DNA of 61,343 nucleotides from Escherichia phage P8983: the sequence record HG792103.1; one strand, written 5' to 3'. Shown here in pieces: positions 15,001-18,000 of the stretch (positions are counted from its first letter, which is position 1; each line of letters starts with the position of its first letter). Made by a program: the position numbers.

Positions 15001-18000
15001 TGTTCTCATTCAGTAGAGTAGGGGCCAAGAAATCGCACTCCGTTGAAGTGAATAAGATGAGAAGGTGCATCAGCCACCCATACCTCTGTTTCCCATGCGA
15101 TTTCACCAAGATATCGCCCCATGATGGAGCGATTTGGAAAAGCGGTCACATAGACAAGTCCGGCTGTTGATCCGGCAAACAGCCTGGCAAGCTCAGCATG
15201 CCGCTTCCCATCAACCGGTCCATGACTGGTGACAGACTCAACCAGTAGCAGCCAGTTTTTCGCAGTAAAATGTAGCACCACATCTGGCATTTTACCGTGT
15301 GAATCCACATCAACACCTAGCCCGGCCAGCAGTGGAGCGTCGAAGTAGCCCCACTTTTCGCCAGTGTCGCCAGCATAGACCAGCACGCTACCCGGAGCAA
15401 AACGTGGGGCGAAGTCCTCTATTATGGCACGGATAAGTTCGCTGTGCTCGCCGGGACTGAGGGTTATTTGCTGGCCCGCAGCAATTTCAACAGGGATACG
15501 ATTCTGTTCGCGCTCCTTAGCATAGCGGGTAACCAGCGTTTCACGCTCGGCTAAATAGGTTGCAAGGCTATCGTGCCATGCCGGGCTGCCGAAAGTGCGT
15601 AGCATGGACAGAGCAGCAGGTTCGATCTGATAAACAGCCTTCGGGCTGTTCACTGGGCGATCGGGCTTGTCCGGATTGTAGAGGGCTACTCCAGCAGCGC
15701 AGAACTGATGCATAGACTGGCGGCGGAATGTCTCACGAGTATTGGGTGCGTAGACCTTGCCGTAGTGCTCCCGAACCCAATTCATGATTGGTGTAATGCC
15801 CACAAGCGGATTTTCCGCGTCGGCCCATGCTTTTCCCGGTGTGAGGTTCAGGAGTGCCAGCAAACACAAAGCAGAACGCTCATTCTGCTGCGCTCTGGGC
15901 AGGCCTAAGGATGCTATAATTTGCTGAGCGGCCTCAATATAATCATTTTGGTTGTTCATGCAGTCAGAGCTCCTAGCTTAGCGTCAATATGTTCTTGCGT
16001 GAGAGTTTCTTGTTGCATAGCCCACTTGCCAAGCTCTATCAGAGTGTCACGGCTTGGGTACTTAATCATCTTGAGGTCGGTTGCATTGACCTGTGTATGC
16101 CCGTTGAAGCGACGGAAATACTTATCCACTGCGGTAGTGTTCAGGAACACGGCCAAGCCACGGGCCAGCGCCTCGGGTAACCCATGTTTGTTCTCATGAA
16201 ACACGTTCATGTGATTTTCAAATCCCAACACTGAATACTCACTGAAGGTAGCAGGATCAACGACGCTTGCTACCACTCGGCGCTTTTCCTCCTTCGACGA
16301 GAAACGACGCACCACACAATAAAAACCGTTCGGGTAAAGCCACTTTTCTGTCTCGTCGTTGCGCATGATTGCGTTGGGTTTCTTCAAACCTTCCACAGGC
16401 CAGACAGTGCTACTCATACTCAAATGGCTCGGGTAGATCAGGGGAACAGTTCCTTCTTCTGGCATGCTGCGCAAATGAGCTTTCAGTCGGAAATCAACTA
16501 TCGGTCCGGTCGATACCTTCACGCCAATATCAGCCAGCGAACATTGTACGGCAGATGATAACTCAATGGTGCTTTTCTCGAGCGTGGTCGGCACATGAAT
16601 AAACCGCTCCGAATCGTCCGGGTACACAATCTGGTCAAATGGGTGTTCGTAGGTGACTAGGTCAAAAAAGCTATCATCGGTCGAAGTTGTGACTGTAACA
16701 GCCTCCTGACGGCCTCCACGCTCCAGGCGGATGATAATATTTTCCTGCAACACATCGTCATCCCTGAAAGCTTTGCTACGTGATTCGAACAAATGAATAT
16801 GGCGGATTGCTGCCCGCTCAAGTATGAAATTACGGAACGGACGGTAATACGGTCCGTTGCAGAAACTACGTGGGATTATGGCCACTATCTGCCCGCCAGG
16901 TGCAACCTCACCTACAGCCAGTGCAACAAAGGCGGAATACAGATTTACCGTCTCGATACCGACAGTGCGAAGAGCCTGCCGGTGGGCTGACTGGCTATTG
17001 ATCTTCTTGTAAGGCGGATTAAGTATTGCATGGGTATAACCTCGATCCTGTAGACCTTCGGCGGTTGCCAGCTCAATATAATCCCCTTCGATGATGCGGG
17101 GCGTCACTCTCCTGTACCCGGTTAAGTGCTTCGCAAGGTGACCACACAGCTTTTTGTCGATTTCGTAGGCTGTTGCCTCGACAGACTCAAAGCCAAACTC
17201 GCCAACCAGCCAACGGTCGAGGAAGGCGCAAGACAGTGCGCCTAAACCAGCGCCTGCGTCCAGTAGACGGCAAGTTTTCATTGTGCTCGGTGGAAACAAG
17301 GAGGCCATAAAACGGGCCACGCCAGAAGGCGTCATGAACTGGCCGAACTCTGCTTTGTGTTTACGCGCGGTACGGGGAGACAGCTCGCGACGCACGCTGT
17401 CTGCGACGTCTAGCTTTTGAAGCATAACTAATCCTCTTTACGTGGCATGATGATGCCAACGTGCTTTTGACATCCTCCACATTCTTCAGGCGTGAAGGAT
17501 GTCAAATCACTCTGTGAGCTCAATCAAAAGTCTCATCATTCCACTGCGATTTGATGACCTTTCCGACAAACTGGCAGTTTTCGTTACACTCAATCATGTC
17601 GAATCGTGGGTTGAGCGGCTCCAGGTACGCTTTACCGCTCTCACGAATGAATCGTTTGAAGGTAAATTCATCGCCGTTCATTCGGGCCACGCAAAAATCG
17701 CCATCCTCGATTTCCCGTTCAGGGTCAACGAGTATCAGCATACCTTCAGGGAAGCTGGGTTTACCACCCTGCGGTGCGGTCATTGAATGCCCCTTGACCT
17801 CCAGCCAGAACGACCTGTCACTGGCTTTTGTGGTGGTGGAGATCCATTTAATCGCATCTTTTGCGGTGTACGAAATATCATCCATTGAGAATGCGCCAGC
17901 TTGTACGCAGGAGAGTAACGGATATTCGTAAGCGGGGACACGAGTTAATGGCTCTTCAATTGCGAGCGCCATTTCTGCAATAGATTTTGCCAGGCTGGGA

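What the first reader, a model, noticed from the sequence alone, without database searches (positions are those of the whole stretch)
15006..17519. Type II R-M operon sits in the immunity region directly downstream of cI, where N would normally be
A gamma-class N6-adenine methyltransferase (DAGAGLG...NPPY) and a coupled endonuclease lie on the cI strand, separated from the cI stop by only 95 bp containing a 14-bp inverted repeat. No N-like antiterminator gene was found anywhere in the early-left arm. Read-through from pRM or a pL-like promoter could tie R-M expression to the lysogenic state. From memory (unverified), a phage-borne PstI-type system methylating CTGCAG has been reported in an Stx2 phage of E. 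coli O104:H4, so the system may be known but its regulatory placement deserves attention.
Basis: partly seen in the sequence, partly recalled or inferred. Interest (0 to 1): 0.6.

Follow-up and report, generated by a model that had tools for sequence, protein, structure and literature searches.

The report
Known phage restriction system beside repressor
This is the already-characterised EcoGIII (PstI-type, CTGCAG) restriction-modification system of the E. coli O104:H4 Shiga-toxin phage; it sits between the repressor gene cI and the leftward early promoter, the slot that holds rexAB in phage lambda, and not where the antiterminator N would be.

Summary
The genes are real and as described. M (489 aa, 15956-17425) and R (317 aa, 15006-15959) lie on the cI strand, overlap by ATGA, and start 94 bp after the cI stop.

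The window is 100% identical to Stx2a phage P13374/phiON-2011 of E. coli O104:H4. The system is the published EcoGIII: it methylates and cleaves CTGCAG, is active in lysogens and protects against lambda-like phages. Its position "in place of" early regulators (Yin 2015) and the lack of N/CII/CIII (Llarena 2021) are also published.

Prophage variants show that segment 14842-14986 co-varies with the cI DNA-binding domain, oR and cro, and it holds a promoter with a lambda-type operator in the same register as pR. So oL/pL lies downstream of R. The R-M pair therefore occupies the lambda rexAB / phi80 gene-40 slot, which in relatives holds HicAB, a protease or a Panacea toxin-antitoxin pair.

The cassette came from a resolvase-M-R unit and kept only about 12 resolvase codons. 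It has no detectable promoter of its own and ends at a strong terminator. Most likely it is the tail of the cI maintenance transcript; this is inferred, not shown.

Verdict: ordinary and already known, with modest new detail.

The parts
17520..18233 (-). cI repressor (HTH_3 + Peptidase_S24), first gene of the proposed maintenance transcript
   Evidence: Pfam; annotated as cI in P13374/phiON-2011
17466..17506 (-). Inverted repeat (15-nt arms, 11-nt loop) between the cI module and the R-M cassette. It forms a 16-bp RNA stem with no U-run. It is a copy of a dispersed palindrome found on plasmids and phage-plasmids.
   Evidence: arms identical but loops different in window, L003 and L004
17426..17464 (-). 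Remnant of the last ~12 codons of a serine-recombinase gene (KHVGIIMPRKED*). It forms the proximal hairpin and carries the M Shine-Dalgarno sequence.
   Evidence: intact 189-aa Resolvase+HTH_7 gene directly upstream of M in L009-L011, L013, L015, L036 (Pfam)
15956..17425 (-). M.EcoGIII, gamma-class N6-adenine methyltransferase (CTGCAG according to the literature)
15006..15959 (-). R.EcoGIII, PstI/BsuBI/SdaI-family endonuclease; its start overlaps the M stop (ATGA)
14966..14987 (-). Intrinsic terminator 20 bp after the R stop (8-bp GC-rich stem + TTTTTCTTT). Analogous terminators follow each alternative cargo unit in relatives.
14835..14863 (-). Candidate pL (TTTACA-17-TATATT) with operator AATCACCGCAAGTTATA (14853-14837) in the same register as the operator in pR
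   Evidence: the immunity-specific segment 14842-14986 co-varies with cI-NTD/oR/cro
18234..18304 (.). oR / pR / presumed pRM region. Contains TATCACCTTTGGTTATA (18238-18254) and pR TTGACA-17-AATGAT with operator AATAACTGTGCGTAATG (18286-18302).

Best explanation
The two genes are the EcoGIII type II restriction-modification system (PstI/BsuBI family, CTGCAG, m6A) carried by Eru1-type (Oslovirus) Stx phages. The cassette was captured from a widespread resolvase-M-R mobile unit, with the break inside the 3' end of the resolvase gene, so the upstream DNA of the donor unit, and any promoter in it, is absent. It was inserted in the variable cargo slot between cI and oL/pL. It is most likely expressed in lysogens as the distal part of a cI-M-R transcript that starts at the maintenance promoter, passes a structured 94-nt spacer with no terminator, and stops at a strong intrinsic terminator just before oL. 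M comes first and R is translationally coupled to it (ATGA). In the lysogen the system methylates the host and prophage and restricts incoming unmethylated DNA, which is functionally analogous to lambda rexAB.

Shown here or in the literature: gene identity, enzyme activity, position relative to oL/pL, origin of the cassette, and the terminator. Inferred: co-transcription with cI from pRM.
For: Identity: 100% identical to P13374/phiON-2011; Pfam and PDB matches. In related lysogens 100% of CTGCAG sites are methylated, and EcoGIII is described as cleaving CTGCAG and protecting against lambda-like phages (PMC6602927).

Position: L002 has the same immunity type but different cargo, and its homology to the window breaks at 14984 and 17506. 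L003 and L005 have a different immunity type and lose 14842-14986 together with the cI N-terminal domain, oR and cro, while L003 keeps the R-M pair. A -35/-10 promoter sits at the same position in both immunity types, with homology resuming at the transcription start. The 17-mer operator occupies the same register in pL and pR. In phi80 the order is cI - gene 40 - O-L - leader (94% identical to window 14568-14755) - N.

Expression: no sigma-70 site scoring 9/12 or better lies in the spacer or the cI 3' end, and weak 8/12 sites occur at background density (5 observed against 4.7 per 400 nt). The spacer hairpins have no U-run and leave the M Shine-Dalgarno sequence unpaired. A strong terminator follows R. 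Only ~12 codons of the ancestral upstream resolvase gene remain.

Precedents: rexAB is transcribed from PRM (PMC11077077); bstA lies downstream of cI and presumably shares its promoter, and the cI-N interval is a mosaic hotspot (PMC8585504).
Against: No transcript data were available here, so co-transcription is inferred from the absence of promoter and terminator signals. The simple consensus scan could miss a weak or non-canonical promoter, for example TTGGCA-17-GAGGAT at 17459-17431 (8/12). The 16-bp spacer hairpin could attenuate or process the transcript to an unknown degree. pRM itself was not mapped. I could not read the primary Fang 2012 paper, which is cited only through secondary sources.
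Confidence: 0.7

Rival explanations
1. M-R is an autonomous unit with its own constitutive promoter in the spacer, the resolvase remnant or the 3' end of cI, so its expression does not depend on the lysogenic switch.
For: Weak promoter-like sites exist (TTGGCA-17-GAGGAT 17459-17431; ATGTCA-15-CATCAT 17473-17447). The same spacer accompanies the R-M pair behind a cI with a different N-terminal domain in L003. The M->R module functions in many non-phage contexts.
Against: No site reaches 9/12, and the 8/12 sites occur at background density. In the closest relatives the region upstream of M is resolvase coding sequence, of which only ~40 bp remains.
Confidence: 0.22
2. One reading: the R-M pair occupies the N position and is driven by a pL-like early promoter, replacing N in the early-left operon.
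For: The pair is the first coding DNA to the left of cI, and the phage has no N. Yin 2015 could not find operators and described the R-M as being 'at the corresponding region'.
Against: The immunity-specific segment with a promoter and operator lies downstream of R and points away from it. A strong terminator separates R from it. The spacer between cI and M contains no operator-like 17-mer scoring 10/14 or better. The phi80 leader homolog lies left of this promoter.
Confidence: 0.03
3. The spacer inverted repeat is a dedicated regulatory element of the R-M system: an attenuator, an RNase III site or a protein operator that sets the cI : M : R ratio.
For: The spacer folds significantly better than shuffles (z = -3.6). 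The arms are identical while the loops differ in three loci. The one mismatch is a G-U pair only in the sense RNA.
Against: The same palindrome occurs in unrelated intergenic sites on plasmids and P1-like phage-plasmids. It is absent from the R-M units of other bacteria and from same-immunity prophages carrying other cargo (L002). This pattern fits a dispersed junction or structural element better. No covariation is available to test pairing.
Confidence: 0.25

Closest known systems
EcoGIII R-M system of E. coli O104:H4 C227-11 Stx2 phage (Fang et al. 2012, cited in PMC6602927)
   Same: It is the same locus. The DNA is 100% identical to O104:H4 phages P13374 and phiON-2011. The literature describes CTGCAG m6A methylation and cleavage, activity in lysogens, protection against lambda-like phages, and a large effect on the host transcriptome.
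   Different: Nothing differs at sequence level. This analysis adds the position relative to oL/pL, the cassette boundaries and the cassette's origin.
PstI / BsuBI / SdaI family of type II systems
   Same: R has both the BsuBI_PstI_RE catalytic domain and the N-terminal HTH domain and aligns over its full length with SdaI (2ixs). M is a gamma-class N6-adenine methylase. The tightly coupled M->R tandem is conserved in 79 of 80 related loci.
   Different: From memory, and not tested here, the prototype PstI genes are divergently transcribed; here the genes are a tandem with an ATGA overlap. The closest relatives have a serine recombinase upstream of M, while the phage copy has cI there instead.
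Lambda rexAB, phi80 gene 40A/B and Salmonella BTP1 bstA (lysogen-expressed cargo between cI and oL/pL)
   Same: Same slot and same strand as cI, followed by a terminator before oL. rexAB is transcribed from PRM. bstA presumably shares the cI promoter, and the cI-N interval is a known hotspot. phi80 gene 40 lies between cI and O-L. All serve as defence or exclusion functions in lysogens.
   Different: The cargo here is a classical R-M pair rather than an abortive-infection system. The proteins are unrelated. Co-transcription with cI has not been demonstrated for this phage.

Membership tests
PstI/BsuBI-family type II restriction-modification system | Endonuclease with the BsuBI/PstI catalytic domain and the N-terminal HTH DNA-binding domain | tested here: met
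   Pfam PF06616 E 4.6e-61 and PF17728 E 1.2e-54, both full length; SdaI 2ixs E 1.2e-77, residues 8-315
PstI/BsuBI-family type II restriction-modification system | Cognate N6-adenine methyltransferase with gamma-class motif order (X, then I, then IV = NPPY) | tested here: met
   FGQFMTP, DAGAGLG and NPPY occur in that order in the translation; Pfam Eco57I-type methylase E 3e-09
PstI/BsuBI-family type II restriction-modification system | Recognises CTGCAG, methylating the adenine and cleaving unmethylated sites | not testable with these tools
   Literature only. M.EcoGIII is described as methylating and cleaving CTGCAG, and 100% of CTGCAG sites are methylated in lysogens carrying a 99.7%-similar enzyme (PMC6602927).
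Immunity-region cargo of the rexAB type (cI-operon passenger) | Lies between cI and oL/pL on the cI strand | tested here: met
   Comparative breakpoints and a promoter/operator at 14863-14835; phi80 synteny
Immunity-region cargo of the rexAB type (cI-operon passenger) | Transcribed from the repressor maintenance promoter in lysogens | tested here: inconclusive
   No promoter above background and no terminator between cI and M; terminator after R. No transcript data.
Early-left (pL) operon gene in the N position | Located downstream of pL/oL and transcribed from it | tested here: not met
   pL lies beyond the R terminator and points away from the R-M pair
C-protein-controlled R-M system | A small HTH controller gene and C-box upstream of R | tested here: not met
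   No ORF lies between cI and M or between M and R; the genes overlap. The only upstream HTH-coding sequence is a ~12-codon resolvase remnant.

The most novel reading that the evidence does not exclude
Because the cassette was captured without the upstream DNA of its donor unit, M and R synthesis may depend entirely on CI-activated pRM transcription. Host-wide CTGCAG methylation, restriction of incoming DNA and post-segregational killing would then be direct read-outs of the lysogenic switch. They would shut off on induction and help retain the notoriously unstable Eru1 prophage. The conserved spacer hairpin would set the CI : M : R ratio.
Probability: 0.3. Interest if true: 0.4.

Novelty: already known. 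Interest (0 to 1): 0.2.

Why it matters
The system is carried by the Stx2a phages of the 2011 O104:H4 and 2006 O103:H25 outbreak strains and is reported to affect the expression of roughly 1,900 host genes. Knowing what drives its expression therefore bears on how the prophage reshapes its host. The existence, specificity, activity and approximate placement of the system are published, so the finding adds little in itself. Three points from this analysis are modestly useful:
- It gives a candidate oL/pL for Eru1/PST2 phages, for which Yin et al. 2015 reported finding no operators.
- It shows that the cI-to-pL interval is a cargo slot that holds R-M, HicAB, an SDH protease or a Panacea toxin-antitoxin pair in different prophages.
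- It shows that the R-M cassette retains none of the donor unit's upstream DNA beyond ~12 resolvase codons, which makes cI-linked expression a testable prediction.

Tried and rejected
- **k-mer search for oL:** exact 9-mers shared between oR and the left arm gave only scattered chance hits. A lambda-type 17-mer score plus comparative breakpoints was needed instead.
- **boxB-like hairpin as evidence of an N system:** only one copy (14798-14812), no nutR partner, and the count is not above chance; 24 of 100 shuffles gave at least as many matches. Rejected as evidence for N.
- **Spacer repeat as intrinsic terminator:** rejected, because no U-run follows the stem.
- **Spacer repeat as part of the ancestral R-M unit:** rejected, because it is absent upstream of M in all 80 related loci.
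- **Proximal hairpin as a regulatory RNA:** mostly explained as conserved resolvase 3' coding sequence.
- **Primary paper:** Fang et al. 2012 (PMID 23138224 / PMC3879109) is not held, so its results are cited through PMC6602927.
- **CTGCAG avoidance in the phage:** 12 sites against about 15 expected from base composition, so no overall depletion.

Full report
**1. What is there**

On the minus strand the window encodes three genes in a row:
- cI, 17520-18233
- a 489-aa methyltransferase, 15956-17425
- a 317-aa endonuclease, 15006-15959

The M stop and the R start overlap as ATGA. The spacer from the cI stop to the M start is 94 bp. It contains an inverted repeat with 15-nt arms that are 14/15 complementary and an 11-nt loop (17466-17480 / 17492-17506).

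M carries FGQFMTP, DAGAGLG and NPPY in the gamma-class order and matches the Eco57I-type N6-adenine methylase family. R matches both Pfam domains of the BsuBI/PstI endonuclease family (E 5e-61 and 1e-54). It also matches the solved SdaI endonuclease 2ixs over its full length (E 1e-77).

**2. It is a known system in a known phage**

Region 14400-18300 is 100% identical to Stx2a phages P13374 and phiON-2011 of E. coli O104:H4, and to TL-2011c of O103:H25. In those records the genes are annotated as a BsuBI/PstI methylase and endonuclease next to cI. In total 134 complete E. coli genomes carry the whole block.

The literature names the system EcoGIII. PMC6602927, citing Fang et al. 2012, describes it as a PstI-like system that methylates and cleaves CTGCAG. 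It reports that EcoGIII protects against lambda-like phages and affects about 1,900 genes. It also measured 100% methylation of CTGCAG sites in lysogens carrying a 99.7%-similar enzyme.

Two further points are already published:
- Yin et al. [quoted passage not shown]
- Llarena et al. 2021 (PMC8044961) stated that Eru1 phages lack homologs of N, CII and CIII.

My own tblastn with phi80 N and lambda N found nothing below E = 1.6.

**3. Where the pair sits relative to the switch**

In lambda the genes directly downstream of cI are rexA and rexB, and oL/pL and N come after them. So the real question is where oL/pL lies in this phage. Four syntenic E. coli prophages answer it.

- **L002 (UCPROB-002)** has the same cI, oR and cro but carries other cargo: a small membrane protein, an SDH-type protease, two hypothetical genes and HicAB. 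Its homology to the window breaks at 14984 and 17506.
- **L003 (O145:H28 RM13514)** has a different cI N-terminal domain, oR and cro, yet keeps the R-M pair (14987-17931 shared) plus a Panacea-domain pair. It loses homology in 14842-14986.
- **L005 (strain 48)** has that second immunity type with HicAB cargo and also breaks at 14841.
- **L004 (JNEC-KY177)** has the same immunity type as the window, retains only the C-terminal third of R, and keeps 14842-14986.

Segment 14842-14986 therefore co-varies with the DNA-binding part of the switch, which is what oL/pL should do.

That segment contains a promoter-like site, TTTACA-17-TATATT (14863-14835). The other immunity type has TTGACT-18-TATATT at the same place, and homology resumes right at the predicted start, CAAGCCAGAA.

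The 17-mer AATCACCGCAAGTTATA (14853-14837) starts 4 nt after the -35 hexamer and runs 4 nt into the -10 hexamer. At pR, AATAACTGTGCGTAATG (18286-18302) occupies the same register, and oR also holds TATCACCTTTGGTTATA.

phi80 provides an annotated precedent. Its order is cI, gene 40A/B, O-L, a leader that is 94% identical to window 14568-14755, then N.

Conclusion: the R-M pair lies inside the immunity region in the rexAB / gene-40 slot. The position equivalent to N lies to the left of 14835.

**4. Origin and boundaries of the cassette**

The M family is widespread: 516 species-representative genomes encode a relative. In 79 of the 80 best loci an R homolog follows M, tightly coupled in most, and none has a cI-like gene within 3.5 kb.

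In the closest relatives a 189-aa serine recombinase ends right at the M ribosome-binding site. It carries Resolvase and HTH_7 domains. These relatives are a Thauera plasmid, Gallionellaceae, Aquabacterium, Pseudomonas, Aeromonas and Serratia, with M 84-88% identical.

The window retains only the last ~12 codons of that gene (KHVGIIMPRKED* against KHVGVITPRQ*). This remnant forms the proximal hairpin in front of the M Shine-Dalgarno sequence. The phage therefore acquired M-R from a resolvase-M-R unit, with the break in the 3' end of the resolvase gene. Any promoter lying further upstream in the donor unit is absent.

**5. The 41-bp inverted repeat**

The repeat (17466-17506) lies exactly between the end of the cI module (17506) and the resolvase remnant.
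- Its arms are identical in the window, L003 and L004, but the loops differ: GCCTGAAGAAT, GCCCTGAAGAAT and GTCCTTTGGGGC.
- Related copies (TTGACATCCTCCACG...CGTGGAGGATGTCAA) occur in unrelated intergenic sites on E. coli plasmids and P1-like phage-plasmids; 106 of 261 matched places are on plasmids.
- It has no U-run, so it is not an intrinsic terminator.
- The spacer RNA folds well (-36 kcal/mol, z = -3.6) and leaves the M Shine-Dalgarno sequence free.

I regard it as a dispersed junction or structural element. A role in attenuation or RNA processing is possible but unproven.

**6. How the system is most likely expressed**

- Between the cI 3' end and M there is no sigma-70 site scoring 9/12 or better. 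Weak 8/12 sites occur at background density: 5 observed against 4.7 per 400 nt.
- No terminator lies between cI and M.
- A strong terminator follows R by 20 bp (14987-14966). A similar terminator closes every alternative cargo unit.

Three further facts point the same way. The cassette retains none of the donor unit's upstream DNA beyond the resolvase remnant. The literature shows full methylation in lysogens. [quoted passage not shown]

The best model is therefore a cI-M-R maintenance transcript, with M translated first and R coupled to it. This step is inferred. No transcript data were available, and I put it at about 0.7. The main rival is a weak autonomous promoter in the spacer, at about 0.2.

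**7. What occupies the N position**

Left of pL the transcript would contain, in order (all minus strand):
- a boxB-like hairpin, 14812-14798; this is not significant on its own
- an exact copy of the E. coli rrn boxA, TGCTCTTTAACAA, at 14755-14743; the rrn boxA-spacer sequence is given in PMC2724277, and an exact 13-mer is expected about 0.002 times in this window
- the phi80-like leader
- an isrK match with its terminator, and a C4 antisense RNA match
- the Rha/Ash gene

This hints that the N-less phage relies on Nus-factor, rrn-style read-through in the leftward operon. It is a side observation and I did not test it.

**8. Verdict**

The genes, their function and their rough placement are already known. 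The claim that they sit "where N would be" is wrong, while the suggestion of pRM read-through is reasonable. Novelty: already known. Interest: low (0.2). The useful refinements are the oL/pL assignment, the cargo-slot view and the capture of the cassette without the donor unit's upstream DNA.

Noticed in passing
window 14743-14755 (minus strand), with 14798-14812: An exact copy of the E. coli rrn boxA (TGCTCTTTAACAA) lies about 75 nt downstream of the candidate pL start, preceded by a boxB-like hairpin (GCCCTtacacAGGGC). No second copy lies downstream of pR. In an N-less phage this suggests Nus-factor-dependent, rrn-style antitermination of the leftward operon.
   Followed up: partly
window 14306-14493 (minus strand): Rfam matches to isrK (14418-14493, with terminator 14438-14423) and to C4 antisense RNA (14306-14393) lie directly upstream of the Rha/Ash ORF (13604-14389). 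This resembles a P1 immI / Gifsy-1 isrK-type antirepressor control module embedded in the pL operon. There are also sRNA-Xcc1 matches at 13387-13470 and 5091-5180.
   Followed up: no
window 14568-14755: This part of the pL leader is 94% identical to the phi80 leader between O-L and the phi80 N gene. It is also present in phi80-carrying laboratory K-12 strains and in a Klebsiella phage. The conserved non-coding leader is shared by an N-containing and an N-less phage.
   Followed up: partly
window 17466-17506; L089 2501-2541; L090 2501-2540; L091 2501-2546: The cI-M inverted repeat belongs to a dispersed palindrome (TTGACATCCTCCACG - variable loop - CGTGGAGGATGTCAA). Copies lie in intergenic regions of E. 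coli conjugative plasmids and P1-like phage-plasmids. Its function is unknown.
   Followed up: partly
L002 3240-5361; L003 3108-3958; L005 3100-3974: The interval between cI and pL is a cargo hotspot. In otherwise syntenic prophages it holds HicAB, an SDH-type ClpP-like protease with a small membrane protein, or a Panacea (SocA-like) antitoxin pair. Each unit is closed by a similar CCGGCC...GCCGG-TTTTTCTTTG terminator.
   Followed up: partly
window 1-21322 versus 21323-61343: All 12 CTGCAG sites of the phage lie to the right of position 21323. The integrase, early-left, immunity and replication regions (21.3 kb) have none, where about 4-5 would be expected.
   Followed up: no
window 12674-13348 and 13604-14389 (minus strand): The C-terminal ~90 residues of the ORF6N-domain protein and of the Rha/Ash protein are nearly identical (…PLSWFS..HHPYATMNYVDRKVISLDASVLFDMPSPTMRILNELHSKGYNVDAAVAEFNAFKHLTEEMRR…). 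This indicates a duplicated C-terminal module on two putative antirepressors.
   Followed up: no
window 14395-14990 compared with phages PA2, VT2phi_272 and phi346: The O157:H7 versions of this phage carry about 106 extra bp somewhere in the R-terminator-to-isrK interval (match split into two pieces; 702 against 596 bp).
   Followed up: no
L004 3529-3688 (E. coli JNEC-KY177; same in G1/2, L091): This is a decayed variant. M and the N-terminal two-thirds of R are replaced by about 160 bp of unrelated sequence, leaving a 100-aa R fragment. The junction lies exactly at the edge of the inverted repeat (window 17466).
   Followed up: no
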